Source: a virus. Taken from it: a stretch of DNA of 64,000 nucleotides. The position numbers were made by a program, and so were the translations under genes. Positions 669 through 33,810 of this stretch are shown piece by piece. The notes below the pieces were generated by a model. It searched no databases. It worked only from the letters and a program-made list of their open reading frames with translations, and was not told the DNA's origin. The stretch is taken from positions 1-64,000 of the IMG/VR virus record IMGVR_UViG_3300036832_001166. One strand, given 5' to 3'. Positions within the stretch are counted from its first letter, which is position 1, and every line of letters starts with the position of its first letter.

Positions 669-1061
669 GTGCCCGGCTACTGGGAGCAGGTCGCAGTCCA
701 TGAGGCGCGCGGCGTTCCGCGGCCGGTCGCGATGCGCGCCGCCCGGATCATCCTGGAGCGCCGCGACCCGTCGCACATGGCGTGGGACGAGATCCTGCAT
801 CCCCGTAACCGCCGCGGCGAGTTCAGCGTCAGCGACGTCGCGCGCACGAAGCTCCCGGCGGGCCGGTTCCCGTCGATGACCGCGAAGCAGATCCACCGGA
901 TGCTGCGCAAGGCGGGGTTCCGGCATGTCGGCACCAAGGGCTCGCACGCGGTGTTCGAACCGCCCACCGGTGGACGTCGCGTGGTGGTGCCGATGCACAC
1001 CGGCTCGATCCCGCGCGGCACGCTGCGCAGCATCCTGACGACGGCCGGGGCGGCGATCTGA
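669..1061 (+). CDS. hicA: HicA-family mRNA interferase domain fused to an N-terminal extension carrying WDEILHPRNRRGEF
   Basis: C-terminal 61 aa (from Met at 876) read AKQIHRMLRKAGFRHVGTKGSHAVF...VVVPMHTGSIPRGTLRSIL, the HicA GSH/VPxH/GTLxSIL pattern. TACGAT -10 box lies 6 nt before the GTG. Confidence 0.75.
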   Translation: MPGYWEQVAVHEARGVPRPVAMRAARIILERRDPSHMAWDEILHPRNRRGEFSVSDVARTKLPAGRFPSMTAKQIHRMLRKAGFRHVGTKGSHAVFEPPTGGRRVVVPMHTGSIPRGTLRSILTTAGAAI

Positions 1062-1196
1062 GATGCGTCACGGGATCGCTCCGGTTTTGTCACATCCGCA
1101 TGCCAACGGGGTATGTGTGATGCGTTAGGAATTGAAGAGTAGGGCGCGTCGGGGATCGCTCAGCACATATCCTGTTCTAAGAGTGAGGTCTCCCTG

Positions 1197-1397
1197 ATGA
1201 GCTGGACTGAGATCGCGATCGAGGCGGCGGAGATGATCGCCCGGCAGCGCGGATGCGAGCTGGCGAGCTTCAGCGTCGACGACGTCGACTGCTACGAGGC
1301 CGAGGACGGCACCGAGGTCGTGATGGTCAAGGCGTCCTGCCAGGTCACGCGTTCTGACGACGAGATCCCCGGGTTCCGGCTAGCCGCGGCGGAGTAG
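1197..1397 (+). CDS. Small acidic hypothetical protein
   Basis: 66-aa ORF after GAGG; degenerate operator copy at 1161-1179. Confidence 0.55.
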   Translation: MSWTEIAIEAAEMIARQRGCELASFSVDDVDCYEAEDGTEVVMVKASCQVTRSDDEIPGFRLAAAE

Positions 1398-1407
1398 GCT
1401 GCTGGGC

Positions 1408-1593
1408 ATGCCGCCGGGCGTGTCGCTTGCGAAGCTGGGGCTGGTCGCGCCCGATGGCCTAGAGTGCCCGGCGGGTGGTCTGCATCACGTGCTGGAGCCC
1501 GAGGTCTTGATAGCGGCCGCGCAGGGTGGTGGCAGCCCCCTCTGCCAGAAGTGCAGGCAGCCGGTCGCGTTGGAGTCGGCGCGCGAGCTTTGA
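1408..1593 (+). CDS. Possible Zn-binding hypothetical protein
   Basis: CPAGGLHH and CQKCRQ motifs in a 61-aa ORF. Confidence 0.4.
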   Translation: MPPGVSLAKLGLVAPDGLECPAGGLHHVLEPEVLIAAAQGGGSPLCQKCRQPVALESAREL

Positions 1594-1735
1594 GGAGACG
1601 GGCTCGCGCGCCGACAAAACATGAAGGAGGCGCCCCGTGCGCGAGCTGCCACGCTCGCTTCCCTCCCCGGGCGTCTCGGGTGGTGTCGTCGGCGCACGGA
1701 GCCACGCCGAGGACGTGAACGATAGGCGAGCGGGT

Positions 1736-1796
1736 TGGTGCGAGCGGGCGCTCCGGGACTCGAACCCGGCAACCCGGCCACTGTTCACCCGCTCGC
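1736..1796 (-). ncRNA. tRNA-like RNA without an anticodon arm, ending in ACCA
   Basis: Minus strand: 11-bp stem GCGAGCGGGTG/CGCCCGCTCGC followed by ACCA, a D-loop-like AGTGG, and a canonical T-arm CCGGG-TTCGAGT-CCCGG; 61 nt. Confidence 0.55.
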
Positions 1797-1819
1797 TGGG
1801 TACCCGTGGCTCCGCGGTC

Positions 1820-1842
1820 ACGATAGCTCACGACGTTTCCTG
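1820..1842 (-). promoter_or_regulatory. Half-operator plus -10 box upstream of the tRNA-like RNA
   Basis: Minus strand reads ACGTCGTGAGCTATCGT, matching the right half of the repeated operator (GTCGTGTGCTA) with -10 TATCGT. Confidence 0.45.
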
Positions 1843-1980
1843 CGCAAAGAGCGCACGATCGGCTCACGTTCGCGCTGCTGGTGCGGGTATGGTGGCTGCG
1901 GTGATCGTTCACGCTGGCCAGCAGAAGCGCGGTAACGCCCGGGAAGCCGAGGAGCGCGACGTGGTGAACCGGGGGCCAGC

Positions 1981-2301
1981 GTGACGATCCGGATCGGGCA
2001 GGACGCGCATGGCCATCACAGCCACACGATGAAACGCGCGCGACTGCCGACGGTGCCGGTGCGCCGGACCGAGACGCGGCAGGGGATCAAACGCCTGCCG
2101 CGCGATCGCGTGGCGGGCGATCTGCCGCTCACCGAGGGTCAGCAGGCGGTGTATGCCGCGATGGGCGAGAGCGTGGTCTCAGCGACCGCGCTGGCGCGCG
2201 CGGAGGGCATGTCCGCGGCGGGTGTCAGCTCGATCATGTACCGGCTGGCGGACCGCGGCCTGGTCGAGCGCGTGCCGGGCAAGGGCTGGCGCCGGACGTG
2301 A
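1981..2301 (+). CDS. Winged helix-turn-helix DNA-binding protein
   Basis: LTEGQQAVY...SATALARAEGMSAAGVSSIMYRLADRGLVERVPGKGWR wHTH pattern; true start may be ATG 2029. Confidence 0.65.
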   Translation: MTIRIGQDAHGHHSHTMKRARLPTVPVRRTETRQGIKRLPRDRVAGDLPLTEGQQAVYAAMGESVVSATALARAEGMSAAGVSSIMYRLADRGLVERVPGKGWRRT

Positions 2302-2468
2302 TGGCGCTGCTCGGCGTGCTCGGCTTCGGCGCTGCCGGTGGCATGCTCGGCTGGATGGTGGCGCTGTTCACCGCGCCGATGGACGAGGGCGCGATCACGG
2401 CGATGGCGGCCGACATGGGCGTTGGCACGGCGATCGGCCTGGGCGTCGGCATCGTCGTGCTGTCGTGA
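2301..2468 (+). CDS. Small two-TM membrane protein (holin candidate)
   Basis: 55-aa ORF read by hand, two Gly-rich hydrophobic segments, coupled by overlaps at both ends; not in the ORF track. Confidence 0.55.
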   Translation: MALLGVLGFGAAGGMLGWMVALFTAPMDEGAITAMAADMGVGTAIGLGVGIVVLS

Positions 2469-3121
2469 TCGCCCCGGCGCTGATCTTCGACTCGGCGGAG
2501 AAGTGGCTTCCGGTGGCCGCCGAGACGATCATCCTGGCGGGCGCCAAGATCGGCGGCGAGCAGATCACGAGCCTTGACCAGCTCACCGGCGATGCGTCCC
2601 CGAGCGCGCGCATCGACTTCCCGAAGGACATGCGGCCGGTCAACGACGACCCGGTCGGCTACCACCGCGTCGTTGACGGCGGCAGCTTGTGGTGGCACCA
2701 GTTCTGGCTGCTGTACCTGTACAACCCGAAGGTGTACGCCGGGTTCGGCGCGCACGAGGGCGACTGGGAGATGGTGCAGCTCGGCTGCCGCGACCCGGAC
2801 GGCAACGTCCCGATCCTGATGACGTTCAGTCAGCACGGCGGCGGCGAGCGACGCGAGTTCTGGCGCACCGAGCTGTACCCGGAGGGCAGCCCCGTGGTGT
2901 ACGTCGCGCGTGACTCGCACGCGAACTACCCGGGCCCGCACCGGGATGTGACCGACGTCGCGGACGGCAGGATGGGCGTTGTGTCGATCCGGTGGCTGGA
3001 GTTCGGGGACTGGGCGGCCTGGCCCGGCCGGTGGGGCAACTCGGAGAACAGCCCGGGCCCGTTGATGACCCGCCGGGCATGGCAGGCGCCGCACGCTTAC
3101 CACTCGCAAGCACGAGGATGA
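2465..3121 (+). CDS. Vps62/NPP1-like HEGDWE-motif protein
   Basis: FWLLYLYN...HEGDWEMVQL...FSQHGGG...VYVARDSHANY...WPGRWG; GTG start at 2465 overlaps the upstream stop. Confidence 0.6.
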   Translation: MIAPALIFDSAEKWLPVAAETIILAGAKIGGEQITSLDQLTGDASPSARIDFPKDMRPVNDDPVGYHRVVDGGSLWWHQFWLLYLYNPKVYAGFGAHEGDWEMVQLGCRDPDGNVPILMTFSQHGGGERREFWRTELYPEGSPVVYVARDSHANYPGPHRDVTDVADGRMGVVSIRWLEFGDWAAWPGRWGNSENSPGPLMTRRAWQAPHAYHSQARG

Positions 3122-3134
3122 CCGAGGAGGACTG

Positions 3135-3767
3135 ATGGAGCTGAACATGATCGAGATCCCCGAGGAGCAGGCCCGCAGCGCGTACGAGGAGTACGCGGCC
3201 GCGGTCAAGGTCAACCGAGACGAGGAGGATCGCGCCATCGCGGAGGGCTACAAGGCGCTGGCCGAGGGCAAGCACCTCATTCACCTGGGGCAGACGCTCG
3301 CGATCGGCGGCACCAGCATCGTGGAGGTCCGCTCGCGCTGGGACGGCCGCACCGTCAACGTCACCGTCCCGAACCTGGCGTGCATCCGCGCCGACGCCAA
3401 GATCGCCTACACGCAGGGCGTCGACCGCGACGGCGGCTGCGTCATCACCGCCGACCGCCGCGACAACCAACTGCACACCCACAACCGCAAGGACCGGTTC
3501 GTCATCGCCGACGGCACGTTCGAGCGGCCGGAGGATTCGCGGGCAGCGCCGGTCCGCGCCATCGTGCCCAACATTCCGCCGCGGCTGCGGCCCAAACGCG
3601 GCCTGCAGCTCTACACGCTGCTGTGGGAGGCGGAGTGGGCGGTCGACCCGGACGCGCCGCAGGATCCGGCGTTACTGCGCCGCCTTGGCGGGGAGCTGTA
3701 CATCGTGCTCGGCACGTGGGACCTGAGTGAGCTGGAGCGCACGGTCCTGTCGGGTCGAGCAAGCTGA
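3135..3767 (+). CDS. Hypothetical protein
   Basis: 210 aa, strong RBS GACCGAGGAGG, good codon bias. Confidence 0.7.
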   Translation: MELNMIEIPEEQARSAYEEYAAAVKVNRDEEDRAIAEGYKALAEGKHLIHLGQTLAIGGTSIVEVRSRWDGRTVNVTVPNLACIRADAKIAYTQGVDRDGGCVITADRRDNQLHTHNRKDRFVIADGTFERPEDSRAAPVRAIVPNIPPRLRPKRGLQLYTLLWEAEWAVDPDAPQDPALLRRLGGELYIVLGTWDLSELERTVLSGRAS

Positions 3768-3793
3768 CGTTCAACCACCACCAAGGAGGACTG

Positions 3794-3952
3794 ATGGAAA
3801 CGACCGAGACCCCCGGGCAGCCAGAGCCGGAGACGCCGGATGTGACGCCGGAGAGCGACCCGAACGTGGACACGCCGACGCCGGAGTCTGACCCGAACGT
3901 CGACACGGAGACCGGCGGCGACGAGGACGACGAGGGTGCCGCCAAGTCGTGA
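3794..3952 (+). CDS. Small acidic protein with a PESDPNVDT duplication
   Basis: 52 aa read by hand; RBS AAGGAGG; stop overlaps the lysin GTG. Confidence 0.55.
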   Translation: METTETPGQPEPETPDVTPESDPNVDTPTPESDPNVDTETGGDEDDEGAAKS

Positions 3953-4761
3953 GCATCACCTTCGCGGACATAAGCGAGCACCAGGAGGCGTTTGACCCGG
4001 TCGCCTACCGGCGGGCGGGCAACGAGGTGATCATCGTCCGTGTCCACAACGGCTACCGGCCCGACAAGTTCATGCCGGGCCGGGTCGCCGCTGTGCGCGC
4101 GGTCCCGTTCCTCGCCATCGGCTACTACCTGTACCTCGCCGCCAGCCGTGACGCCGCCGGGCAGGCCCGTGAGGCGTGCGACACGGTCGGTCGCGTGCGT
4201 GACAACGAGTTCCTCATCTGCGATCACGAGGAGGGGACGGGCAGCCAGGTCGCGCGCTGCGAGGCGGCGCTCGGCGTCATGGACCGCCACCAGGGCTTCC
4301 CCGCCACCCTGTACGCGTCGACGTCGTTCTTTGACGAGCATCTCGGTGGCCGGGCGCGGTGGCGGCGGCCGCGGTGGATGGCGAGCTACCTGTACTCCTA
4401 CAGCGCCGACATGAGCCAGTACCCGGCCGGGGCGACGTTCTGGCAGTACTCCGACCGCGGGCATTTCGCGGGTCTGCCCGGGCCGGTGGACGCCAGCATC
4501 TTCCCCGGCGCCGCGCGCGAGTTCCTGCCCGCGGTGCGATCTGGCGCCCCGCTCGCGCCGACACCTCTACCGAAGGGAGCGACGATGGCTGACCTGGTGG
4601 CTGTGCTGAAGGCCAACAAGGCGATCGAGCTGTTTGTGATGGACAAGGACGGGACGGTCTGGCATACGTGGCAGACCGGGGAGGGCTCAGGCTGGGCGGG
4701 CGCGCAGGCAGGCAAGCGCAACGCGGCCTGGTACAGCCTGGGCGCGCCCGGGAAGAAGTGA
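3949..4761 (+). CDS. Endolysin, GH25 (Chalaropsis-type) muramidase-like
   Basis: N-terminal DISEHQ, ICDHEE (DxE), W.ASY, FWQYSD...VD.SIF pattern; short C-terminal domain. Confidence 0.75.
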   Translation: MSITFADISEHQEAFDPVAYRRAGNEVIIVRVHNGYRPDKFMPGRVAAVRAVPFLAIGYYLYLAASRDAAGQAREACDTVGRVRDNEFLICDHEEGTGSQVARCEAALGVMDRHQGFPATLYASTSFFDEHLGGRARWRRPRWMASYLYSYSADMSQYPAGATFWQYSDRGHFAGLPGPVDASIFPGAAREFLPAVRSGAPLAPTPLPKGATMADLVAVLKANKAIELFVMDKDGTVWHTWQTGEGSGWAGAQAGKRNAAWYSLGAPGKK

Positions 4762-5099: not shown

Positions 5100-5298
5100 C
5101 CGCGGACGGAGGATCGGGCAGGAGGACGTCGACCGGCTGCGCGACTGGCTGGAGCGGCAGCACGCGCCGGGCGCGGACCGGTCTGACGAGGAGCTGCGCG
5201 AGATCCTGGTGGGCGCCGAGGAGTGGATTCACGGGCGCCGCTGGTCGTTCACGATCGTCGCGGCGAACTACCTGCGGGACGGCGTCTATCACGCGTAG
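5092..5298 (+). CDS. Hypothetical protein
   Basis: Overlaps the upstream gene; good codon bias. Confidence 0.55.
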   Translation: MADRGRRIGQEDVDRLRDWLERQHAPGADRSDEELREILVGAEEWIHGRRWSFTIVAANYLRDGVYHA

Positions 5299-6091: not shown

Positions 6092-7582
6092 ATGAGTGCT
6101 GTCAAGGATGCTGCAGGCAAGGCGAAGGACGCGGCGGGTGATGCCGCTGACGGGGCGAAGGGCGCGACCGATGGCGTGACCGGCGGGCTGCGCAAAGAGA
6201 TCCTGTCGAGCTTCGGCGACGTGCTCGGCCCGGCGATCAAGGAGATGTCCTCGCAATCGGCCGAGAAGCTCCTGGCCTACGCCAAGGAGCAGGGTCCGGC
6301 GATCTTCAAGGAGCAGGCGCTCCCGAAGATCATGAAGTCGGCCGGGGTCGATAACCCCGAAGATCTCGCCAAGGCCGGGGTCGGCAAGGTGGGCCAGATG
6401 ATGTCCAGCGGCGGCGGGATCACCGGCATGGCCGGGAAGCTGATGTCGAAGATCGGCGGCAAGGGCGGGAAGAAGGGCGTCGCGACCGGCTACGGCCAGG
6501 GCCGCCGGATCATGCTGCAGCAGCACCAGTACATCCCGGTCAAGACCGAGGACGTGTACCGCGCGTGGACGACGAGCGAGTGGCCGGAGTACATGCACCG
6601 CGTCAACACGCTGGACCGCCAGGTCGAGGAGGACGCGGTCCGCTACGCGATCGGCGTCAAGGGCTTCTGGTTCAAGAAGAACTTCACCGCGCAGATCCAG
6701 GAGGCGGTGCCGTTCCGGTTCATCGTGTGGTCGACGACGCAGGGCAACATCAAGAACACCGGCCGGGTCAGCTTCCACGCCGCGGGCGACGACCTGACGC
6801 TGATGGTCCTCAACCTCGACATGGCCCCGTCCGGGCTGCGCGAGAAGTGGGTGCGGGGCTTCCGCTACCACAAGCGCGGTGTGCGCTCTGACTTTCACCG
6901 CTTCTCCGCGTGGGTACAGATGCGGACCCAGGAGCAGCTCGATGACATGGACGGCTGGCTCGGCACGATCGAGGGCGGCAAGGTCGTCCAGACGCACGAG
7001 GACTACCTGGAGGAGCATCCGCGTGATGAGGAGGAGGGCCCGCCGTCATTGGAGGAAGAACGTGAGGGTGAGCGCGACGAGGAGGAGCAGGATGCTGAGC
7101 CCGATGAGGGCGATGAGCCCGCCGAGGGCGACGAGGACGAAGACGGCGAGCCCGAGGCCGACGACGAGGCCGACGAGCCCGAGCCCGAGGCCGAATCGGT
7201 TGATGACGAGGCGGACGCCGATGCCGACGCCGAGGGCGACGAGGAGCCCGATGACGAGGCTGATGTAGGGGACGAGGACGCGGGAGATGAAGACGAGGAT
7301 GAAGACGAGGATGAAGAAGACGAGGCCGAGGAGCCCGAAGACGAGGTAGATGAGGAGGAGGAGGAGCCGGAGGACGAGGAAGAGGGCGACGACTACGACG
7401 AGATGGGCGTCCCGGAGCTGCGCCGCGAGCTGCGCTCCCGCGACCTGCCGTCCCGCGGCCGCCGCTCCGAACTTGTCGACCGGCTACGCGAGGACGACGC
7501 CGCTGACGATGAGGAGGAGGAGGAGCCGGAGCCTGAGCCCGAGCGGCCACGTCGCCGCCGCCGGGCGAAGGCTTCGCGCTAG
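6092..7582 (+). CDS. SRPBCC (polyketide cyclase/START-like) protein with a long Asp/Glu tract and a SAP/Rho-N-like C-terminal domain
   Basis: YIPVKTEDVYRAWT..EWPEYM.RV...IVW..TQG...GRVSFH...L.M.P.G SRPBCC pattern; ~120 mostly D/E residues; YDEMGVPELRRELRSRDLPSRGRRSELVDRL; poly-Arg C-terminus. Confidence 0.7.
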   Translation: MSAVKDAAGKAKDAAGDAADGAKGATDGVTGGLRKEILSSFGDVLGPAIKEMSSQSAEKLLAYAKEQGPAIFKEQALPKIMKSAGVDNPEDLAKAGVGKVGQMMSSGGGITGMAGKLMSKIGGKGGKKGVATGYGQGRRIMLQQHQYIPVKTEDVYRAWTTSEWPEYMHRVNTLDRQVEEDAVRYAIGVKGFWFKKNFTAQIQEAVPFRFIVWSTTQGNIKNTGRVSFHAAGDDLTLMVLNLDMAPSGLREKWVRGFRYHKRGVRSDFHRFSAWVQMRTQEQLDDMDGWLGTIEGGKVVQTHEDYLEEHPRDEEEGPPSLEEEREGERDEEEQDAEPDEGDEPAEGDEDEDGEPEADDEADEPEPEAESVDDEADADADAEGDEEPDDEADVGDEDAGDEDEDEDEDEEDEAEEPEDEVDEEEEEPEDEEEGDDYDEMGVPELRRELRSRDLPSRGRRSELVDRLREDDAADDEEEEEPEPEPERPRRRRRAKASR

Positions 7583-13270: not shown

Positions 13271-14134
13271 ATGCGTAGAGCCCTGGTGATCATTCCGGGC
13301 CTCGCGGGGGTGCTGATCGCAATCGTGGTCGCTACGGCGACGGCTGGGCAGACCGGAGGGCAGCTTCCGGGGTGCGTGCCGTCGCACCAGACACCGCAGA
13401 AGTGCATGTGCCGCGACAGGCATTCCGCGTGGTCGCACGGCGACCGTCGCCGTGACGAGTGCCCGCCGAAAGAGGAGAAGTGCGACGACCATCAGATGAA
13501 GCAGCCGTGCTGCGATTCAGACAACGACTGGGATGACGTCGGCTGCCCGACTACCAGCACGAGCAGTAGCACGAGCAGTAGCACGAGCAGTTCGACAACG
13601 AGCAGTTCGACAACGACCAGCTCGACAACGAGCAGCGAGACGACGACCGGCAGTGAGACCGGCACGACAACGGTGACGGTGACGGAGACCGGTCCTCCAG
13701 GGCCTCCCGGCCCTCCCGGCCCCCCCGGGCCCGCGGGCGCCAACGGGACCAACGGCGCCAACGGCGCCAACGGCGCGAATGGTGCGAATGGTGCGAACGG
13801 CAAGAACGGCAAGAACGCGCCCAGGTGCGTGAACAGGGTGAGGTTCGCTAGGACCGCGCCGCTGCCCCGGCGTTTCATCGGCGTCAAGCTGATCGACGTC
13901 AACATCGCCGGTCGCCACCAGACCGAGCCGCTGCTGCGCGGCCGCAAAGTGCGCGTCGTCCTGCGCGGCCTGGCGTGCGGCACGTACCCCATCGTGTTCA
14001 GCAACGCGCGCAACTCGCGCAAGCCGATCCCGGTCCTCCGGATCTGGCAGCTTGTCGGTGGCAGGCGTCTGATTCGCGCGGGATTCCCGCTGGTGGCTCC
14101 GCCGATTGGGCTGAGCTTTCGCCAAGGGCTGTAA
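13271..14134 (+). CDS. Secreted Cys-rich, Ser/Thr-rich, collagen-like protein
   Basis: Signal peptide MRRALVIIPGLAGVLIAIVVA; poly-S/T tract; (GPP)4 then (GAN)n/GKN triplets. Confidence 0.75.
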   Translation: MRRALVIIPGLAGVLIAIVVATATAGQTGGQLPGCVPSHQTPQKCMCRDRHSAWSHGDRRRDECPPKEEKCDDHQMKQPCCDSDNDWDDVGCPTTSTSSSTSSSTSSSTTSSSTTTSSTTSSETTTGSETGTTTVTVTETGPPGPPGPPGPPGPAGANGTNGANGANGANGANGANGKNGKNAPRCVNRVRFARTAPLPRRFIGVKLIDVNIAGRHQTEPLLRGRKVRVVLRGLACGTYPIVFSNARNSRKPIPVLRIWQLVGGRRLIRAGFPLVAPPIGLSFRQGL

Positions 14135-22212: not shown

Positions 22213-24999
22213 ATGGACCTCGTCACCATCGCGCGCGAGAACGCGACGCTTCGCGAGGAGTTCCTGCGCCGCGGACTGGTCACGGAGGACCGCCTGAACC
22301 AGCTCGGCTGGGTGTCGCACTCAGACCTTGACCTGTGGCAGGACGCGGGCGTGCTGGAGCTGGGCGTCCGCGGGCTGCAGGAGGCGTGGGGCCATAGCGT
22401 CCCCGGCGGCATCCGCGTCGGCGGCGGCGGCCGCCACGGCGCGTGGGGTCTCGGCGCCCTCAGCGGCGACGTCTTCAACCGACGGATCCTCCGCGGCCGC
22501 GGCGGCAGGTTCGCCGGGAGCATCGGCGGCAAGCAGGTCGCGCCCGGCGAGAAGCACAACCGGCGCATCGCGGCCATCCCGAGCCTGCCGCGCGTCTCAC
22601 GCATCGAGCATCCCGGCGCGAAGGAGGGCGCGCCGATCGCGACGGTCAAGACCCGCCGCGGGATCGGGCCGTCCAAGAAGCTGAAGGTGTACGCCACCCC
22701 AGCGAGCCGCGCTCGGCCGGGGCTGCCCGAGCGGATGAGCGGCGAGCAGGCGCAAGCCGAGTTCGCCAGCCAGGCCGCGCCCGCCATCGGGCATCCCGAG
22801 GAGCTGCACGCGCTCGGGAAGGAGCGTCTCAAGCGCATGGCTGACGCGGAGCACAAGGCCGGTGTCAGCGCCTGGCGCGCCGGGGACGTCGCCGCCGCCA
22901 ACAAGCACCACCGGACCGCGGGCGAGCACATGGCCTCGATCCACAATCCCGACGAGACGCTCAAGGCGGGCACCGCGGAGGTGTACGAGCGGCGCAGCAA
23001 GCGGCTGGAGAAGCGGATCTCGCGCCGGGTCGCGAAGGCCGGGAAGCAGAAGCGCACCCCAGCGGCCCGCCAGCCGCGCGGCGAGCACGACCTGAGCGCC
23101 GCCGAGGTTCACTTCAACGACGCCGGACGCGTCTCGCAGAAGACGCTGCTGGCCTACGTCGAGCAGGCCGCGACCAAGCCGACGACCGCGTCGATGTACC
23201 GCGACGCGAACGGCAACTACCACCCGTCCCGTCAGGCGTTGCACGCGGCGATCATCGACAAGCTGTTCCGCCAGCAGACCGACCAGGGCCTGAGCGGGAC
23301 GGCGCCCGAGCTGAAGCCGCCCGCCGACGGCAAGCCGACCGTGCATTTCACCGGCGGCGGCTACGCCAGCGGCAAGGGCGGCGTCATCAAGCAGCTCAAG
23401 GCGAAGGGCGAATGGCCCGAGGACGCGATGCTGCTCGACCCGGACCTGATCAAGGCGGAGCTGCCCGAGTTCCAGCACGCCGCGATGGACGACCCGGAGG
23501 CGAACCTGCGCGTCTACACCGAGGCGTGGGACATCGCGCAGCAGGCGATGAAGCTGGCGCAGGAGAAGAAGCTGAACGTGGTGGTCGACGGGATCACGAA
23601 CACGAGCCCCGACGAGGTCGCCAAGCGGCTGAAGAGCTTCACCGACGCGGGCTACGTCAACCCGCGGATCAGCTACGTCAGCGTGCCGACCGAGGAGGCG
23701 ATCTCCCGGGCGAGAGCGCGGGCGGAGAAGGCTAAGACCCCGGCGGACCGGCGGATGATCCCGGAGACGATCATGCGGTCCGTCCACCGTGACGTGTCGG
23801 CGACGCTGCCGGGCGTCCTGCAGCGCGCGAAGGAGATGGGCGCGCAGGTGCAGGTGTACGACACCAACCAGGGGCTCGACGAGACGACCGGGCGGCCGAA
23901 CGCGCCGAAGCTGGTGGCCGAGGCGATGCCGAACGGCCACATCCACTACCCGGACCCGGAGGGCTACCAGGCGATCCTGAACAAGGCGCAGGAGACGATC
24001 TCCGGCGTCCCGGACGTGCGGGCACCCGAGCAGGGCGCGTGGCGTACCGGCGGGCAGATCGTGAAGATCGACCCGGGCGTCGAGCGCAAGGTCGGCCAGG
24101 ATCTGATGCGCAGCATGCCGAACGCGGCCGAGCAGAAGCTGCCGCAGCCGACCAGCGATCCCGCTGACCTGCTCAAGATCGCGGAGGAGAAGGGCCTGCC
24201 CGCGTACCGGGCGCTGCTCGATCTCGGCGCGGGGATTGCACAGGCGCTCGGCGGTGACGTTCACGACATCTCGGCGGGCAAGGACTTCAAGCAGGTCGGC
24301 GAGGACATCGCCAGCAACATGAGCAAGCCGCACGTGATCATCGCGCCGGTCAAGAGCATGCGGCGAGCGTTGGAGAAGGCCGCGGCGGACGGCACCCCGA
24401 ACGACTTCTCTCACCTCCACGACGCGGTGCGCGCGACCGTGACCGTCCCGACGGCGCAGGATCTGCCGCACGCCATCGCGACGATCACCAAGGAGGCGGA
24501 GGCGCGCGGCTGGAAGGTGGAGCGCACCAAGGCGCGGCTGCTGAACGCGAAGGGCTCTAACCGGTCGGGCTCCAACGGCTACGGCGACACGACCCTGATC
24601 CTGCGCGCGCCGCCGGAGGCGGGCGGGATGACAGCCGAGCTGCAGATCAACACCAACCCGATGTGGTGGACCAAGGAGGTCGGGCCGGGCCACAAGTACT
24701 ACGAGCTGGAGCGCCAGATCACCGGCCGCGCGATGGCCGAGAAGCGCAAGCCGACGCCGCAGGAGTCCGACCTGGTCGGCAAGATCCAGGAGGCCGCCAA
24801 GCCGCTGTATGACCGCGCGCACGGCGCGTCGCTGAACGGCGGCATCACCGGCAACGCCGGGGACGCCGTGATGGGCAACGAGAGCGATCGCGCGCAGGCG
24901 CAGAGCACCCTCAAAGAGCTGGCTGACCAGACGGCCGGGATGATGGGCGGCCCGCCGACGCCGACGTCGCAGCGTGGCCGCAGGCCGAGGGCGGCGTGA
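22213..24999 (+). CDS. Multidomain protein: N-terminal LQEA/RGRGGRF region, Zeta-toxin-like P-loop kinase, RelA/SpoT-like nucleotidyltransferase
   Basis: FTGGGYASGKG, LDPDLIKAELPEF, NVVVDGIT, ISYVSVPTEEAISRA..RA, RRMIPE (Zeta/PezT-like); VKSMRRALEK, LHDAVRATV, NGYGDT, AELQINT..M, GHKYYE (RelA_SpoT-like). Confidence 0.8.
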   Translation: MDLVTIARENATLREEFLRRGLVTEDRLNQLGWVSHSDLDLWQDAGVLELGVRGLQEAWGHSVPGGIRVGGGGRHGAWGLGALSGDVFNRRILRGRGGRFAGSIGGKQVAPGEKHNRRIAAIPSLPRVSRIEHPGAKEGAPIATVKTRRGIGPSKKLKVYATPASRARPGLPERMSGEQAQAEFASQAAPAIGHPEELHALGKERLKRMADAEHKAGVSAWRAGDVAAANKHHRTAGEHMASIHNPDETLKAGTAEVYERRSKRLEKRISRRVAKAGKQKRTPAARQPRGEHDLSAAEVHFNDAGRVSQKTLLAYVEQAATKPTTASMYRDANGNYHPSRQALHAAIIDKLFRQQTDQGLSGTAPELKPPADGKPTVHFTGGGYASGKGGVIKQLKAKGEWPEDAMLLDPDLIKAELPEFQHAAMDDPEANLRVYTEAWDIAQQAMKLAQEKKLNVVVDGITNTSPDEVAKRLKSFTDAGYVNPRISYVSVPTEEAISRARARAEKAKTPADRRMIPETIMRSVHRDVSATLPGVLQRAKEMGAQVQVYDTNQGLDETTGRPNAPKLVAEAMPNGHIHYPDPEGYQAILNKAQETISGVPDVRAPEQGAWRTGGQIVKIDPGVERKVGQDLMRSMPNAAEQKLPQPTSDPADLLKIAEEKGLPAYRALLDLGAGIAQALGGDVHDISAGKDFKQVGEDIASNMSKPHVIIAPVKSMRRALEKAAADGTPNDFSHLHDAVRATVTVPTAQDLPHAIATITKEAEARGWKVERTKARLLNAKGSNRSGSNGYGDTTLILRAPPEAGGMTAELQINTNPMWWTKEVGPGHKYYELERQITGRAMAEKRKPTPQESDLVGKIQEAAKPLYDRAHGASLNGGITGNAGDAVMGNESDRAQAQSTLKELADQTAGMMGGPPTPTSQRGRRPRAA

Positions 25000-29907: not shown

Positions 29908-29959
29908 ACGTTAGGGGACGCTACACTGGGTCGGCGTACCCGACCCGAGGAGGACAAGA

Positions 29960-30460
29960 ATGCCCAGTGCGATGCAGGACGCGCCCGCCCAGAACGGCAG
30001 CGCGCCCCAGGTCCCGCACGCTGCCGAGATCGTCCAGCAGCTCCGCGCCCTGATCGACGAGCGACGCATCCGGCTCGCCGAGCTGGACCAGGAGCGCGAC
30101 CGGATCAACGCTGAGGTGAAGGCCTACGAGCAGGCGATCAAGCCGCTGACCGGAGAGCAGCCACGCAAGCGCGGCCGAGCCAAGGCCCAGCAGTCCGGGA
30201 ACCTGACGAGGGTCGGCACCGATCGCCTGGAGGAGCTGAAGAACTTCCTCCGCGCCTACGGTGCCGATCACGACGAGTTTCGGCAGGTCGACATCCGCGC
30301 CGCGATGGGTCAATGGGCGGACGGCGCCAAGATCAGCTCCGGCGCGAGCGCCTCGGCGTTTGAGACGCTGCGTCAGGAGCCGCACAACTTCTTGCGCATC
30401 GGCCGGGTGGACGGCAATTCGAAGTACTACCGGCTGACCCGTGAAGCGCTGCGGTCATGA
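29960..30460 (+). CDS. Coiled-coil plus putative DNA-binding domain
   Basis: N-terminal heptads, basic linker RKRGRAK. Confidence 0.65.
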   Translation: MPSAMQDAPAQNGSAPQVPHAAEIVQQLRALIDERRIRLAELDQERDRINAEVKAYEQAIKPLTGEQPRKRGRAKAQQSGNLTRVGTDRLEELKNFLRAYGADHDEFRQVDIRAAMGQWADGAKISSGASASAFETLRQEPHNFLRIGRVDGNSKYYRLTREALRS

Positions 30461-30939
30461 GCGCGTCGCGCAACGGCCGGGTCGACATGACCCTGCTGGG
30501 GATCTCCGACGCGGACATCCTCGGCATCCTTGATGACCTGAGCGACGAGAACGGCTGGGCGACGACGATGGCGGTCCGCGTTCAGCTTGGCGAGGACCCG
30601 TGGGTCCCGTCCACGGGCGAGCATCGCTCCGGCGTCGGCATTCGACTGGCATGGCTGCGGCGCTACGGCTGGCTGGAGAAGGGTCAGCGCGAGAAGATCG
30701 ACTCCGACGACGAGCGCGGCTGGCGCTGGTCGCAATCCTGGCGGCTCACCGCGATGGGGCAGGCGCTGCTTGACCACCCGGAGCTGAACCGGACTGTCGA
30801 GAAGGCGCTGGCCGGACTGAACCCCGCGCAGCGGCTGCGGATGGTCCGGGAGCTGGGGGAGTCGGGGTTCGGTGCAGCGCCCGAGATCCAGTCGGCGCTA
30901 CGTCGGCAGTGGCGACGCTCAATGCGCCTGCGCGCATGA
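30457..30939 (+). CDS. Winged-helix-like protein
   Basis: GIRLAWLRRYGWLEKG...WRLTAMG pattern. Confidence 0.6.
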   Translation: MSASRNGRVDMTLLGISDADILGILDDLSDENGWATTMAVRVQLGEDPWVPSTGEHRSGVGIRLAWLRRYGWLEKGQREKIDSDDERGWRWSQSWRLTAMGQALLDHPELNRTVEKALAGLNPAQRLRMVRELGESGFGAAPEIQSALRRQWRRSMRLRA

Positions 30940-31133
30940 CCAACGCCTGCTACTGCCTGTGCGGGATCAACCACCCGTCAGTCCCCGGCCTGTGCGGCGC
31001 GGTCGCCGAGACGAAGGTGTACTTCTGGGTCGGCGAGGAGCCCGAGCGCGAGCGGGTCGCCATACCGATGTGCTCGCGCTGCGCGGCCGCGACGCTGGCG
31101 CACAGCCCGGGAGCGTCGACGACATCGTCATGA
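30936..31133 (+). CDS. Zn-finger hypothetical protein
   Basis: CYCLC..NH..LC...MCSRC. Confidence 0.5.
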   Translation: MTNACYCLCGINHPSVPGLCGAVAETKVYFWVGEEPERERVAIPMCSRCAAATLAHSPGASTTSS

Positions 31134-31166
31134 GGCTGGGGGCTGACACGGCCGTACGCTTCCCAT

Positions 31167-32975
31167 GTGTCGGTCTCCGCACCCCCGCCTGCCGCTCCAG
31201 CCGCGCCTCCGCCCGGCGGCGGCACCGGTACGTGGAGCGCGCAGCTTCACCCGCGCGGCCGCGGCGGGAAGTGGATCGTCTCGCACGGCGCCGGGTACGG
31301 GCCCGCCGGGGCTGACCAGACCACCCAGCAGCTCCAGCAGCGCCTGAAGCAGCTCGGCTTCAATGTGCCCGCTGACGGCAAGTACGGGCCGCTGACCCAG
31401 CAGGCCGTCAAGGCGTTCCAGAACCGGTACGGGCTGACTCCCAGCGGCAGCGTCGACGCCGCGACGATGGAGGTCTTGCAGAACCCGCCCAGCCAGACGC
31501 TCAAGCAGGTGCAGACGGGCATGGCGGCCACCAAGAAGGCGGCGTCTACGGCCGCTCGCAAGACCGCCACCGCCAAGGCCAGGGCCAAGTCGAGCCAGCG
31601 TACGGCCAGGATCCGCGCGGGCTCAGGCAGCCCTACGCGGGCTCTGAACAGCACCGTGCAGGGGCCCGGCCATCTCGGCCAGGGCAACCTGCAGCAGGGC
31701 GCGGGCCTGACCGGCACCGCCAGCCCCGCGGTCTCCAACCTGCAGGCGACGCTCACCGCCGCCGGATACAAAGTCAACAAGGACGGGCGCTTCGGCCCGC
31801 AGACGGAGGCAGCCGTGAGACAGCTTCAGCAGGCGCACGGGCTCGCCGTTGACGGCGTCGTCGGACCCGAGACGAAGGGCCTGCTGATCGGGCTGGCGGC
31901 AAGCACCGCCAAGACGACGACGAGAGCCAAGCGCTCCGCCCGGATCACGAGCAAGTCGATCCCCGGGCAGCCCGCCGTCCTGCGCACCGCGGCGGGGACG
32001 CCACGTCACGGCAGCCGCAGCGCCGGGAGCCGCATGAAGCTGACGCCGCCGAAGAAGGGCCCGGGGATCCTGAAGTACTCGGCGGAGGTGCCGACTGAGC
32101 AGCCCGGGCTGGAGGAGACGACGGTCGCGTTCGGCTACGGCGGTCAGCCGTCGATGTCGATCAAGGATGCTCGCGATCAGGAGCCTGCCTACGACCAGCC
32201 GGTGTGGACCCGAACCAGCGTTCAGACTGACATCCCGGACCTGACCATCCAAGACGGCCGCGAGCCCTCCCCGCCGACACCGAAGCAGGGCGAGATCCTC
32301 GTCGACGGCCGCGAGCCGTCACCGCCGACGCTGCCCGGCCAGATGCTCGTCGACGGCCGCGAGCCCCCGCCGCCGCAGCCGACCGGCGACCTGACGATCC
32401 CGGACGGGCGCGTTCACGTCCAGACGATGACCCGGCTCGCCGAGGCCGTGCTGGCGCGCAGGGCCGCCAAGACCGGCGACGAGTTCGTGCGCGCCCGGGC
32501 TCGCGAGCGCGTGCTCCGCCAGCAGCTCGCCGAAGCCGGGCTGTACAAGGAGGCGCTTCACCCACGCGGCCGCGGCGGGAAGTGGATGCAGGCGCAGCGT
32601 GACCGGGTCGCGCCGTACTTCGATCTGACCAAGCCGCACGAGATGGTGCCCGTGGACGCGCTGCGGCCGACCAAGGAGGACCCGGAGTCGAGCTACCGCA
32701 ACGCCGCGAAGCGGATGGACGACGCGGCGCGAGGCGGGCTGGCGAAACGCAAGCCGGTGACCGCTCAGCGCGGCGCTGGCGGCAGGCTGCTGCTCGTCGA
32801 CGGTCACGCAACCGTGGAGGCACTCAAGCGCAAGGGCATCACGCACGTTCCGGCCGAGATCCGGCCGCGCGCCACGCCGCTGAACCCGAAGACCACGCAC
32901 GAGGCGATCCGCGAGCAGGAGCGGCTGGAGCGGGCCGCGATCGAACAAGAGAGCAAGCGAAGGAGAGCACGATGA
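31167..32975 (+). CDS. Modular protein: HPRGRGGKW motif, two peptidoglycan-binding domains, DGREP repeats, helical module, second HPRGRGGKW, ParB/Srx-like domain
   Basis: LQQRLKQLGFNVPADGKYGPLTQQAVKAFQ...GL..SG.VD and LQATLTAAGY...DGRFGPQTEAAVRQLQ..HGL.VDGVVGPET (PG_binding_1); VPVDALRP...KPV...LLLVDGH...ALKRKG..HVPAEI (ParB-like). Confidence 0.8.
   Translation: MSVSAPPPAAPAAPPPGGGTGTWSAQLHPRGRGGKWIVSHGAGYGPAGADQTTQQLQQRLKQLGFNVPADGKYGPLTQQAVKAFQNRYGLTPSGSVDAATMEVLQNPPSQTLKQVQTGMAATKKAASTAARKTATAKARAKSSQRTARIRAGSGSPTRALNSTVQGPGHLGQGNLQQGAGLTGTASPAVSNLQATLTAAGYKVNKDGRFGPQTEAAVRQLQQAHGLAVDGVVGPETKGLLIGLAASTAKTTTRAKRSARITSKSIPGQPAVLRTAAGTPRHGSRSAGSRMKLTPPKKGPGILKYSAEVPTEQPGLEETTVAFGYGGQPSMSIKDARDQEPAYDQPVWTRTSVQTDIPDLTIQDGREPSPPTPKQGEILVDGREPSPPTLPGQMLVDGREPPPPQPTGDLTIPDGRVHVQTMTRLAEAVLARRAAKTGDEFVRARARERVLRQQLAEAGLYKEALHPRGRGGKWMQAQRDRVAPYFDLTKPHEMVPVDALRPTKEDPESSYRNAAKRMDDAARGGLAKRKPVTAQRGAGGRLLLVDGHATVEALKRKGITHVPAEIRPRATPLNPKTTHEAIREQERLERAAIEQESKRRRAR
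32239..32418 (+). repeat. Tandem ~16-aa repeat (I/L/V)xDGREPxPP, three full copies plus one partial
   Basis: TIQDGREPSPPTP, ILVDGREPSPPTL, MLVDGREPPPPQP, TIPDGRVH. Confidence 0.75.
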
Positions 32976-33307
32976 CCCTGCTTGAAGACCGATTGCAGGA
33001 GGCCGTTGACGCGCGCAAGGCGGCGGCCAGCTCGACCGAGTTCGTGCGCGCCCGCGCTCGCGAGACGTACTTCCGCCGCCAGCTTGAGGAGAAGCAGTTC
33101 ACCGCCGCGCGCCGCGAGACGCTCGCCAAGAAGGGGAAGGCGATGCCGCACGGCGGCTTCCCGATCGAGAACGGCGCGGATCTCTCCAACGCGATCCAGG
33201 CGCTCGGCCGCGCGAAGAACCCCGAGGCGGCGAAGGCGCACATCATCAAGCGTGCGAAGGCGCTCGGACTGACCAGCAAGCTGCCGGACTCCTGGAACGT
33301 GAGCTGA
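32972..33307 (+). CDS. Small head-associated phage protein (recalled as DUF6582-like, unverified) with an N-terminal helical module
   Basis: R..LAKKG.AMP.GGFPI.N..DL.NAIQA.GRAKN...AKAHIIKRA..LG....LP.SW. Confidence 0.65.
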   Translation: MTLLEDRLQEAVDARKAAASSTEFVRARARETYFRRQLEEKQFTAARRETLAKKGKAMPHGGFPIENGADLSNAIQALGRAKNPEAAKAHIIKRAKALGLTSKLPDSWNVS

Positions 33308-33810
33308 TGCCGTACGCCTGCCGCGGCAACGACGTCATCCGCTCCGACACCGGCGCGGTGGTCAAGCATCACTCAACGCACGCGAAGGCGCTCGCGCACC
33401 TGCGCGCGCTAAAGGCCAACGTCGAGAGTCAGGAGGCCGAGTGGCGCTGGCTGGATGAGCACGCCGAGGAGTGGCTGCCGACCGACGAGCAGCTCGCGCT
33501 GGAGGAGTCCGAGAAGACGGCCGGGTACTCGGTGACCAAGTCGCCGTTCTCGGCGAGCACCACGAGCAACTGGATCGCTCGGCTCGGGGGGCTCCCGGCC
33601 TACATCCAGAACGTGGCCAAGGGGATCATGAAGCGGGGCAAGACCGAGTCGCAGGCGATCCAGATGGCCATCGGCGTGATCAAGAACTGGGCCAGCGGGC
33701 GCGGCAAGGTCAGTGCTGAGGTGCGCGCGGCGGCAGCGAAGGCGCTCGCCGCCTGGGAGGCCCTGAAGGCCAAGAACGCGGCCAAGAAGGGCGCCAAGAA
33801 GGCCGCATAA
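33307..33810 (+). CDS. Head-morphogenesis-associated protein (NWI..LGGLP.YI domain)
   Basis: NWIARLGGLPAYIQNVAKGIM..G..ESQAIQMAIG..K.WA.G domain, recalled from actinophage protease-associated proteins. Confidence 0.6.
   Translation: MPYACRGNDVIRSDTGAVVKHHSTHAKALAHLRALKANVESQEAEWRWLDEHAEEWLPTDEQLALEESEKTAGYSVTKSPFSASTTSNWIARLGGLPAYIQNVAKGIMKRGKTESQAIQMAIGVIKNWASGRGKVSAEVRAAAAKALAAWEALKAKNAAKKGAKKAA

What the first reader, a model, noticed from the sequence alone, without database searches (positions are those of the whole stretch)
669..33810. Candidate head-packaged cargo system: one short motif and L-x-E|A sites linked to different effector domains
Seen: three dispersed ORFs carry an aromatic-x3-LHPRxxxG[KRE][FW] motif or a variant: 669 (WDEILHPRNRRGEF), 31167 twice (WSAQLHPRGRGGKW, YKEALHPRGRGGKW) and 22213 (FNRRILRGRGGRF). 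Each is followed by a different cargo: HicA; two peptidoglycan-binding domains; ParB-like; Zeta kinase plus RelA/SpoT. In three of the four cases an x-x-E-A site lies upstream of the motif (VHEA, LQEA, LAEA/YKEA). The same L-x-E-A/S signature is dense in the protease/scaffold (LREA, LQEA x4, LEEA, LMEA, LLES) and at the capsid N-terminus (LLEA, LEEA just before the conserved ADFP). Established: T4 gp21 cleaves head and internal proteins after L/I-x-E, and MuF-linked and polyvalent phage proteins carry toxin-like domains into hosts. Inference: these are internal head proteins that are targeted, matured by the prohead protease and ejected, forming a modular effector system based on a peptide tag rather than a MuF domain.
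Basis: partly seen in the sequence, partly recalled or inferred. Interest (0 to 1): 0.82.

Follow-up and report, generated by a model that had tools for sequence, protein, structure and literature searches.

The report
Header tag on phage head cargo
A 125-kb uncultured phage puts the same short peptide in front of at least eight unrelated enzyme and toxin modules, usually just after a site that matches what its own capsid protease probably cuts, so these look like proteins packed in the virus head, cut apart and injected; the peptide is widespread and I found no published description of it.

Summary
[LIVMF]HPRxxxG[KRE][FWY] occurs 7 times in the complete 125,432-bp phage genome, against 0.0009 expected. 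There is also one G-A-W copy and a decayed copy in the Zeta-kinase gene. The full unit is L-x-E-A-x-[WYF]-x-E-x-L-H-P-R-G-R-G-G-K-W. Five copies lie outside the window, in two giant genes just downstream of the portal gene.

L-x-E-[AS] is the most over-represented pattern in the head protein at 51077-52582 (10 sites against 1.04 expected). Two more sites sit in the first 31 capsid residues, and five sit directly before tags. The N-terminal domain of that head protein folds like T4 prohead protease gp21 (Z 9.3).

A tag profile finds 1,051 protein clusters among 1.84 billion, with up to 16 copies per protein. The core is universal. The residues just before it are uniform within a protein and differ between lineages. 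Stand-alone tagged genes start at the position where cleavage would leave the new N-terminus.

The reading "packaged, cut by the prohead protease, ejected" is plausible but unproven. "Tag rather than MuF" is wrong: the tag also sits behind portal and post-portal anchor proteins. Earlier agents in this scan noted the same tag on other DNA. No paper was found.

The parts
669..1061 (+). Tagged HicA-like toxin gene (130 aa from the first GTG; the true start is uncertain, and an ATG at 777 would put Met at position -6 of the tag)
   Evidence: Pfam HicA_toxin E 4e-16 over residues 73-127; PHROG 'toxin' E 3e-16; sequence read
777..836 (+). HPR header tag, M-A-W-D-E-I-LHPRNRRGEF, with no in-register L-x-E-A
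22213..24999 (+). 928-aa protein: conserved 50-aa N-module, decayed tags, Zeta-type kinase, weak RelA/SpoT-like C-terminal domain
   Evidence: Zeta_toxin E 1e-22; RelA_SpoT E 0.004, below the cut-off; the kinase part matches PHROG 16619 'minor head protein' E 5e-16
22375..22512 (+). LQEA followed by two decayed tag copies (…GGGGRHGAW and F-N-R-R-I-L-RGRGGRF, which lacks H-P)
   Evidence: The orthologue L031:1-2112:- (50% identity over 666 aa) has a canonical L-Q-E-V-D-W-T-E-V-LHPRGRGGKW here; L048 aligns its LHPRGRGGKF to the second copy
31167..32975 (+). 602-aa two-module protein: N-terminal tag, 2 peptidoglycan-binding domains, low-complexity spacer, LAEA + second tag, ParB-like domain
   Evidence: PG_binding_1 E 9e-37; ParBc_2 22.4 bits against a cut-off of 23.6; the family with an N-terminal tag plus PG-binding domains recurs in 9 of 57 tagged ORFs
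31233..31274 (+). N-terminal header tag (W-S-A-Q-LHPRGRGGKW) behind a Pro/Ala/Gly leader, with no L-x-E-A
32526..32585 (+). Internal junction: L-A-E-A-G-L-Y-K-E-A-LHPRGRGGKW (putative cut site one residue out of the commonest register, then the tag)
51077..52582 (+). Prohead protease-scaffold fusion candidate (501 aa). Residues 11-207 have a gp21-like fold, and the C-terminal half is helical and scaffold-like
   Evidence: AF2 pLDDT 73.9; best structural match T4 gp21 5jbl_A, Z 9.3, 141 of 165 residues, next rows Z 6.5 or lower; PHROG 172 scaffold E 6e-7; invariant H103 and S172; L.EA 9 against 0.72 expected, z 10; no Pfam family in 335 homologues
52612..53010 (+). Capsid decoration/cement protein
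   Evidence: Phage_cement_2 E 1e-5
53122..54177 (+). Major capsid protein; LLEA (53164-53175) and LEEA (53203-53214) lie just before the start of the conserved capsid fold
   Evidence: Phage_capsid_4 E 4e-36, aligned from residue 31; sites p 0.006; N-terminus conserved in 25 related contigs

Best explanation
The peptide [WYF]-x-E-x-L-H-P-R-G-x-x-G-[KR]-[WF] is a conserved header that opens each cargo module of head-associated 'polyvalent' phage proteins.

In this phage the cargo comes in two forms. One form is strings of modules behind a post-portal anchor protein, which lie outside the window at genome 106782-114704. The other form is separate genes, which are the three in the window.

In this lineage each internal header is preceded by L-x-E-A. 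I infer that the gp21-like prohead protease, fused to the scaffold at 51077-52582, cuts after the Glu. The same event would degrade the scaffold and trim the capsid N-terminus. Each module would then be released with the header at its new N-terminus. Stand-alone tagged genes in other phages begin at that same position.

The released modules would be HicA, PG-binding/ParB-like, Zeta kinase/RelA-like, CCA-adding enzyme, HD hydrolase, GNAT and zincin-like units. They would stay in the head and enter the host with the DNA.

Shown:
- the tag and its non-random distribution;
- its position at module boundaries;
- the site enrichment in head proteins;
- the protease-like fold;
- the fusions to portal and anchor proteins.

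Inferred: packaging, cleavage, ejection, and what reads the header.
For: - Tag frequency: 7 copies against 0.0009 expected, all in + strand genes.
- The extended unit L-x-E-A-x-[WYF]-x-E-x-LHPR occurs in 5 of 8 copies, plus one M-Q-E-S.
- In 60 non-identical internal tags from 52 viral-contig stretches, whose upstream residues were not part of the search pattern: aromatic at -4 in 59, E at -2 in 42, E at -7 in 34, L at -9 in 24.
- The tags sit between Pfam domains. Orthologous anchor proteins (55-83% identical over the N-terminal region) carry different cargo: GNAT, LigT, Zeta+NUDIX, CCA+HD+Cmk.
- 57 tagged ORFs carry 23 Pfam families, including one Mu-type portal fused to two tagged modules, and LPD1.
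- The portal gene lies directly upstream of the tagged giant genes.
- Protease: fold match to T4 gp21, Z 9.3 and well clear of the rest; invariant His and Ser.
- L.EA is the one strongly enriched pattern in that protein, at z 10. The enrichment persists in a more distant homologue (L097; homologues in this family are 46-83% identical), at 9 against 0.69 expected.
- The capsid has two sites just before the conserved fold.
- Across 143 distant tagged proteins the core is universal. Positions -9 to -5 are uniform within a protein and differ between lineages.
- A complete phage whose tags follow T-A-A lacks this protease family and shows no L-x-E-[AS] enrichment.
- Stand-alone tagged genes start with ATG at -7 behind Shine-Dalgarno sequences, one with an in-frame stop 3 codons upstream.
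- Literature: T4 internal proteins are targeted to the core and trimmed by gp21 (PMC9958956). A 2,811-aa polyvalent protein was found in phi24B virions by proteomics (bioRxiv 10.64898/2026.04.10.717836).
Against: - There are no virion proteomes or N-terminal data for any tagged protein.
- The protease call rests on one predicted model. No sequence family matched: Pfam S77, S78, ClpP and Mu-like_Pro were all absent, and hhalign to Mu gpI and HK97 gp4 was negative. The catalytic residues were not superposed.
- A gp21-like fold does not imply gp21-like specificity.
- Uniform flanks within a protein could reflect recent duplication of tag-plus-flank rather than selection for a cut site.
- L-x-E-A could be favoured in helical E/A/L-rich segments for structural reasons.
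- The anchor protein is not recognised as MuF by Pfam.
- Two of the three window genes lack an in-register L-x-E-A before their first tag.
- The three window genes lie 18-50 kb from the head genes.
- The lineage covariation test rests on three contigs.
Confidence: 0.55

Rival explanations
1. The modules are packaged through the anchor protein, but they are cut apart by the zincin-like metallopeptidase units embedded in the polyproteins. These are the HExxH motifs in the genes at genome 106782-109922 and 113022-114704. On this view the prohead protease is not involved, and the header plus its upstream residues is the recognition site of those embedded peptidases.
For: HEAAH and HEAGH motifs lie in two modules of the anchor polyprotein, and HETLH lies in the next gene. 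Iyer et al. 2017 describe zincin-like peptidase domains as regular parts of polyvalent proteins (PMC5512222). The phi24B polyvalent virion protein has a MuF-C metallopeptidase.
Against: The same L-x-E-[AS] site is enriched tenfold in the protease-scaffold protein and occurs twice in the capsid N-terminus. That pattern points to the enzyme that matures the head. The zincin calls rest on short motifs only; the best Pfam match is E 0.22.
Confidence: 0.15
2. There is no cleavage. The header and its helical lead-in form a structural joint or docking element, for example a beta-hairpin that binds packaged DNA, the portal or the scaffold. It lets modules fold independently and be retained or ejected as whole polyproteins. 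The L-x-E-A density in the scaffold would be a by-product of helical, E/A/L-rich sequence.
For: The header is basic and glycine-rich (R-G-R-G-G-K-W), and it resembles the rRNA-contacting R-D-G-R-F-I-E-K-L-G stretch of ribosomal protein bS16, though not significantly (E 0.68). Stand-alone genes carry the header at the very N-terminus with nothing to cut off. Across lineages the -7/-6 residues are as often A-A as E-A.
Against: L.EA is the only strongly enriched gapped pattern in the scaffold protein, and related patterns of the same residues are not enriched. The sites also flank the capsid N-terminal extension, which is not a coiled coil. The upstream stretch is lineage-specific while the core is universal, as expected for two separate functions.
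Confidence: 0.2
3. The header acts only after delivery or in the infected cell, for instance by directing each enzyme to a common host target or to a phage-made compartment. On this view its link with head genes is incidental.
For: The three tagged genes in the window sit among early- or middle-looking small genes, 18-50 kb from the capsid gene. No partner that reads the header has been identified.
Against: Tagged modules are fused to a portal protein, and are fused behind the post-portal anchor protein in more than 20 related phages. Zeta-kinase modules match a PHROG annotated as minor head protein.
Confidence: 0.1

Closest known systems
Polyvalent proteins of phages and conjugative elements (Iyer, Burroughs, Anand, de Souza, Aravind 2017, PMC5512222)
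   Same: They are strings of 2 to 16 unrelated enzyme or toxin domains in one polypeptide, encoded next to head genes, often behind MuF or portal. They include Zeta kinase and zincin-like peptidases, and are proposed to be packaged and injected. LPD1 occurs in one tagged ORF.
   Different: The paper's text does not mention an HPR-type header or any repeated junction peptide. Here every module is opened by one conserved peptide, and the same peptide also heads separate small genes.
T4 internal proteins IPI-III and Alt, with their capsid targeting sequence and gp21 cleavage (PMC9958956)
   Same: A short N-terminal peptide marks non-structural proteins for the prohead core. A prohead protease that also degrades the scaffold trims them, and the products are injected.
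   Different: In T4 the targeting peptide lies before the cut and is removed. Here the cut would lie before the header, which stays on the product. The header has no sequence similarity to the T4 peptide. The protease is fused to the scaffold and does not match Pfam S77.
MuF polymorphic toxins of temperate phages (Jamet et al. 2017, PMC5576092)
   Same: A conserved N-terminal head-protein anchor carries interchangeable C-terminal toxin or enzyme domains. Orthologous anchors here carry GNAT, LigT, Zeta+NUDIX or CCA+HD+Cmk.
   Different: The anchor is not detected by PF04233. There are several cargo modules per protein, each with a header. No immunity gene was found. The paper does not mention linkers, motifs or cleavage.
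Ejection proteins of giant phages (SPN3US, phiKZ group) processed by a gp21-related prohead protease (PMC7411985, PMC10052503)
   Same: Many head-internal proteins are cut at a short consensus site ending in Glu by the prohead protease and are then ejected.
   Different: These are different phage groups. No shared header peptide is reported there, and I did not read these papers beyond their abstracts.

Membership tests
Polyvalent proteins (Iyer et al. 2017) | Two or more unrelated effector domains in one polypeptide of a phage or conjugative element | tested here: met
   ORF 31167: PG_binding x2 + ParB-like. ORF 22213: Zeta + RelA-like. Genome 109935-113018: CCA-adding enzyme + HD + DUF7178. 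Genome 106782-109922: GNAT + HExxH units.
Polyvalent proteins (Iyer et al. 2017) | Hallmark accessory domains (MuF, LPD families, zincin-like peptidase) | tested here: inconclusive
   LPD1 occurs in one tagged ORF of another contig. In this genome there are only HExxH motifs read by eye and no LPD or MuF Pfam hit.
MuF / SPP1 gp7 minor head protein (PF04233) | Match to the family profile | tested here: not met
   No PF04233 match at E up to 10 in the whole genome, nor in the protein itself. The nearest named ESM-Atlas cluster is Phage_Mu_F at score 0.90, which is a lead only.
MuF / SPP1 gp7 minor head protein (PF04233) | Gene directly downstream of the portal gene | tested here: met
   The portal is at genome 102681-104747 (PHROG 10963, E 5e-30). 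The anchor gene starts at 106782, with one minus-strand gene between them.
T4 gp21-type prohead protease (MEROPS S77, PF03420) | Match to the sequence family | tested here: not met
   PF03420 has no match at E up to 1 in the genome. S78, ClpP and Mu-like_Pro are also absent.
T4 gp21-type prohead protease (MEROPS S77, PF03420) | Assemblin-like fold of gp21 | tested here: met
   Model residues 11-207 against 5jbl_A: Z 9.3, rmsd 4.0, 141 of 165 residues aligned. This is the only chain with Z of 8 or more among 48,161. Foldseek found nothing.
T4 gp21-type prohead protease (MEROPS S77, PF03420) | Catalytic His and Ser in the equivalent positions | tested here: inconclusive
   H103 and S172 are invariant in 24 homologues, but no residue-level superposition was available.
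T4 gp21-type prohead protease (MEROPS S77, PF03420) | Cleavage after Glu in L/I-x-E | not testable with these tools
   Only indirect evidence: L-x-E-[AS] is enriched tenfold in the protein itself and in two homologues, and occurs at the capsid N-terminus.
T4-type capsid-targeted internal proteins | N-terminal targeting peptide that is removed at the protease site | tested here: not met
   The putative site lies upstream of the header, so the header would be retained. Stand-alone genes start with the header itself.
T4-type capsid-targeted internal proteins | Presence in the prohead core and mature head | not testable with these tools
   There is no proteome for this uncultured phage. The indirect support is fusion of tagged modules to a portal.
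MuF polymorphic toxins (Jamet et al. 2017) | Conserved anchor with variable C-terminal toxin among relatives | tested here: met
   21 homologues of the anchor's first 330 residues carry at least five different cargo sets.
MuF polymorphic toxins (Jamet et al. 2017) | Cognate immunity gene next to the toxin | tested here: inconclusive
   No HicB or other antitoxin family was found in the neighbours of ORFs 669, 22213 and 31167. Small unannotated genes follow each of them.

The most novel reading that the evidence does not exclude
The HPR header is a universal, portable address for protein delivery by tailed phages. It would be read by a conserved head or DNA component in phages of many bacterial phyla, and it would be combined in each lineage with a cut site tuned to that lineage's own prohead protease. 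Any protein given the header, plus the local cut site, would then be loaded into capsids, released as a free module and injected.
Probability: 0.3. Interest if true: 0.9.

Novelty: new variant of a known kind. Interest (0 to 1): 0.72.

Why it matters
Polyvalent and MuF-linked proteins are thought to be the payload that phages inject with their DNA to disarm the host. How such proteins are loaded, separated and released is unknown outside T4 and the giant phages.

A header of about 20 residues is shared by more than a thousand protein clusters. In this lineage it sits next to a site that matches the phage's own head protease. That gives a concrete, testable rule for which proteins are payload and where they are cut.

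The rule would allow payloads to be read directly from phage genomes. In this phage the payload would be HicA, Zeta kinase, an alarmone synthetase/hydrolase pair, a CCA-adding enzyme, GNAT, and PG-binding/ParB-like modules. It also suggests a handle for loading chosen proteins into laboratory phages.

Tried and rejected
- Nucleotide and protein searches of 50,697 cultured-phage records found no close relative. The best capsid match was 27% identical. No cultured phage carrying a tagged protein turned up.
- The first structure prediction of the protease domain, from 10 near-identical sequences, failed (pLDDT 48). A deeper alignment worked.
- Foldseek against the PDB gave nothing for that model.
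- hhalign of the protease-scaffold family against Mu gpI and HK97 gp4 was negative.
- The tag profile has no counterpart in PDB sequences, apart from a non-significant bS16 stretch.
- A word-indexed search with the tag profile was swamped by the 8,000-candidate limit and returned only 21 proteins. The exhaustive search was used instead.
- The scan of bacterial genomes with the back-translated tag returned 120 rows, all of them chance-like. Only 3 had an aromatic residue at -4, and the matches lay in short or out-of-frame ORFs. At about 33 bits of pattern in 596 Gb, roughly 100 chance hits are expected. The scan therefore says nothing about prophages and serves only as a negative control.
- The covariation test in a second lineage was inconclusive. 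The T-A-A signature carries too little information, and no protein of that 93.8-kb phage is enriched for it.
- Relatives of two other multi-tag proteins fetched from viral contigs had no tags.
- No antitoxin or immunity family was found beside the tagged toxin-like genes.
- Full-text searches for LHPR-type motifs found no relevant paper.

Full report
WHAT THE WINDOW IS

The window is the first 64 kb of a single 125,432-bp virus record. The record is 69% G+C, is classed as having direct terminal repeats, and is rated 100% complete.

It is a contractile-tailed phage:
- major capsid protein at 53122-54177 (Phage_capsid_4, E 4e-36);
- cement protein at 52612-53010;
- tail sheath at 57364-58878;
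- tape-measure-like gene from 60539;
- baseplate J and terminase gpA further on;
- portal at genome 102681-104747 (PHROG 10963, E 5e-30).

No cultured phage is close. The best capsid match is 27% identical. About 25 uncultured viral contigs have capsids 81-94% identical.

THE OBSERVATION

A six-frame scan of the whole genome finds seven matches to [LIVMF]HPRxxxG[KRE][FWY], plus one G-A-W copy. All are in long + strand genes, and none is in the other five frames. From the residue frequencies of the 32,032-aa proteome, 0.0009 matches are expected, and 2 of 2000 shuffles gave one.

Five copies lie beyond the window, in two giant genes right after the portal:
- genome 106782-109922 has three copies;
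- genome 109935-113018 has two copies;
- the next gene has a degenerate copy.

Read together, the copies show a longer unit: L-x-E-A-x-[WYF]-x-E-x-L-H-P-R-G-R-G-G-K-W.

The cargo calls hold for HicA, the PG-binding pair and Zeta kinase. They are weak for ParB-like and RelA/SpoT-like.

The odd copy in ORF 22213 is a decayed true tag. An orthologue 50% identical over 666 residues has a canonical L-Q-E-V-D-W-T-E-V-LHPRGRGGKW at that spot. A second homologue aligns its LHPRGRGGKF to the R-G-R-G-G-R-F copy.

One detail is wrong. VHEA in ORF 669 is far out of register with the tag.

THE L-x-E-A CLAIM

L-x-E-[AS] occurs 50 times in the proteome.
- Ten sites are in the 501-aa head protein at 51077-52582, against 1.04 expected from shuffling its own residues (0 of 5000 shuffles).
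- Two are in capsid residues 15-31, against 0.11 expected for the whole protein (p 0.006).
- Five are directly in front of tags, and a sixth tag has M-Q-E-S.

In an unbiased scan of all a-x-b-c patterns in the head protein, L.EA is the only one with four or more hits. It has 9 observed against 0.72 expected, z 10.

The enrichment persists in homologues from two other contigs, one of them clearly more distant: 10 against 1.04, and 9 against 0.69.

The capsid profile alignment starts at residue 31, right after the second site. The N-terminal stretch with both sites is conserved in all 25 relatives.

IS THE HEAD PROTEIN A PROTEASE?

No sequence library recognises its N-terminal half:
- Pfam, PHROGs and PDB sequences give nothing;
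- 335 homologues carry no Pfam family;
- S77, S78, ClpP and Mu-like_Pro are absent from the genome;
- hhalign to Mu gpI and HK97 gp4 is negative.

A model built from 24 homologues has pLDDT 73.9, and 80-95 over most of residues 25-205. Foldseek found nothing.

An exhaustive structural alignment against 48,161 PDB representatives puts T4 prohead protease gp21 (5jbl_A) first. The match has Z 9.3 and rmsd 4.0, with 141 of 165 residues aligned over model residues 11-207. It is the only chain with Z of 8 or more. All following rows, at Z 6.5 or lower, fall on the helical C-terminal half.

His103 and Ser172 are invariant. The C-terminal half matches a scaffold PHROG.

I read this protein as a prohead protease fused to its scaffold. 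The fold does not by itself give the specificity.

THE TAG ELSEWHERE

A back-translated pattern found 52 stretches in viral contigs. These gave 89 tags in long ORFs, of which 84 were non-identical. The residues upstream were not part of the pattern. Even so, among the 60 internal copies, 59 have an aromatic residue at -4, 42 have E at -2, 34 have E at -7 and 24 have L at -9.

The same pattern in bacterial genomes gave only chance-like hits without these features.

Fifty-seven tagged ORFs carry 23 Pfam families: PG-binding, Zeta, NUDIX, CCA-adding enzyme, HD, GNAT, cytidylate kinase, LigT, LPD1 and others. One is a Mu-type portal fused to two tagged modules.

The first 330 residues of the post-portal protein have 21 homologues on 107-123-kb contigs, with at least five different cargo sets.

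A profile of the tag, searched against 1.84 billion representatives, finds 1,051 proteins at E up to 0.001 and 166 at E up to 1e-10. Proteins of 5,313 and 7,334 residues have up to 16 copies.

In these proteins the core [WFY]-[DEN]-E-x-x-HPR-[DG]-x-x-G-[RK]-[FW] is universal. Positions -9 to -5 are uniform within a protein and differ between lineages:
- L-x-E-A here;
- F-S, V-A-A-G-D, T-A-A, S-L-[ST] and A-Y-[AV]-E elsewhere.

Two contigs with E-A-type tags have the protease-scaffold family. A complete 93.8-kb phage with T-A-A-type tags lacks it, and no protein there is enriched for L-x-E-[AS]. This agrees with a lineage-specific cut site next to a universal header. However, it rests on three contigs, and shared descent of duplicated tags could produce the same uniformity.

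WHERE THE PRODUCT WOULD START

Small stand-alone tagged genes in three contigs begin with ATG at position -7 (M-[AGS]-R-[WF]-…). Each ATG lies behind a Shine-Dalgarno sequence, and one has an in-frame stop three codons upstream.

A cut after E at -7 would give internal modules the same N-terminus as these free genes have. N-terminal tags that follow a short leader often lack L-x-E-A altogether. An example is the Pro/Ala/Gly leader of ORF 31167.

This fits two functions side by side: a cut site where something must be removed, and a header that every module keeps.

MECHANISM

Most likely, at about 0.55 for the whole chain:
1. The polyproteins enter the procapsid through the post-portal anchor, and the separate tagged proteins enter through the header.
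2. The protease-scaffold protein digests itself, trims the capsid N-terminus, and cuts each junction after L-x-E.
3. The freed modules, each headed by the tag, stay in the head and enter the cell with the DNA.

T4 internal proteins and gp21 are the model for this (PMC9958956). A 2,811-residue polyvalent protein has been found in phi24B particles by proteomics.

The difference from T4 is that the header would be retained, so it must do more than target. Retention on DNA, or passage through the tail, are guesses. What reads the header is unknown.

Rivals are processing by the embedded HExxH units, no processing at all, and a role only inside the host.

COMPARISON AND NOVELTY

The system belongs with polyvalent proteins (PMC5512222) and MuF polymorphic toxins (PMC5576092). 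Neither paper mentions such a header, and full-text searches for the motif found nothing relevant.

The anchor is not a Pfam MuF, although it sits in the MuF position and an embedding search points to MuF.

Earlier agents of this scan noted the same header on other genomes and on the downstream part of this genome. Those are unverified notes, not independent evidence. What I tested myself agrees with them.

I rate this a new variant of a known kind.

NOT DONE

Noticed in passing
genome 106782-114704 (outside the window; L003:2782-10704): Three consecutive giant genes lie after the portal. The first is an anchor with 3 tagged modules (two HExxH units and a GNAT). The second has a tagged CCA-adding enzyme/HD, a tagged HD_4-like phosphohydrolase and DUF7178. 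The third is a 560-aa protein with the degenerate header L-Q-E-A-F-D-P-T-Q-P-R-F-P-K-G-H-A-R-A-G-Q-W and an HExxH motif.
   Followed up: partly
window 24070-24996 and genome 111576-112073 (L003:7642-8139): The phage seems to carry both a RelA/SpoT-like nucleotide pyrophosphokinase (weak, E 0.004, fused to Zeta kinase) and an HD_4 / metal-dependent phosphohydrolase module (PHROG 990, E 1e-27). Each is behind a header. This could be an alarmone synthetase and hydrolase pair delivered together.
   Followed up: partly
window 22213-22365: A conserved module of about 50 residues (…A-R-E-N-A-T-L-R-E-E-F-L-R-R-G-L…G-W-V-S-H-x-D-L-D…) precedes the header in Zeta-kinase proteins of at least four other contigs (L031, L048, L023, L050). 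No library names it.
   Followed up: no
window 42505-49236 (+): Giant Ala/Thr/Ser-rich ORF of up to 2,243 aa with Laminin_G_3 / concanavalin-like domains (E 2e-31), probably a fibre or adhesin. Its second-codon-position G+C is unusually high (0.63). The true start is uncertain, because the ORF overlaps the gene at 42074-42904.
   Followed up: partly
alignment A1 of tags against PDB sequences: The stretch after H-P-R (R-x-G-[KR]-[FW]-I-[ED]-K-L-G) resembles R-D-G-R-F-I-E-K-L-G of ribosomal protein bS16 (E 0.68, not significant). This hints at a beta-hairpin that could contact nucleic acid.
   Followed up: no
L004:1-3930:- (viral contig IMGVR_UViG_3300012971_001162): A 1,310-aa Mu-type portal protein (Portal_Mu, E 4e-37) is fused at its C-terminus to two tagged modules, with tags at residues 765 and 1086. 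This is the most direct sequence link between the header and the head.
   Followed up: partly
L036:861-2379, L007:8166-9385, L037:1760-3003: These are arrays of two or three adjacent small genes (117-250 aa). Each starts directly with the header (M-A-R-W-N-…LHPRG…) and continues with a Gly/Ser/Lys-rich stretch. The phages are small, with contigs of 18-34 kb.
   Followed up: partly
window 6092-7582, 13271-14134, 37817-38725(-), 3949-4761: Other annotatable genes: a 496-aa protein with a C-terminal SAP DNA-binding motif, a collagen-repeat protein, a minus-strand collagen-like tail fibre gene, and a GH25 lysozyme. A VanY-type peptidase lies at genome 115370-116005.
   Followed up: no
viral contigs L006, L014, L034, L038, L045: A recurring 39-codon ORF (…I-C-P-P-G-P-I-LHPRRRRGKFGVW…) matches the H-P-R core but has no aromatic residue at -4. 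It is probably unrelated to the header.
   Followed up: no
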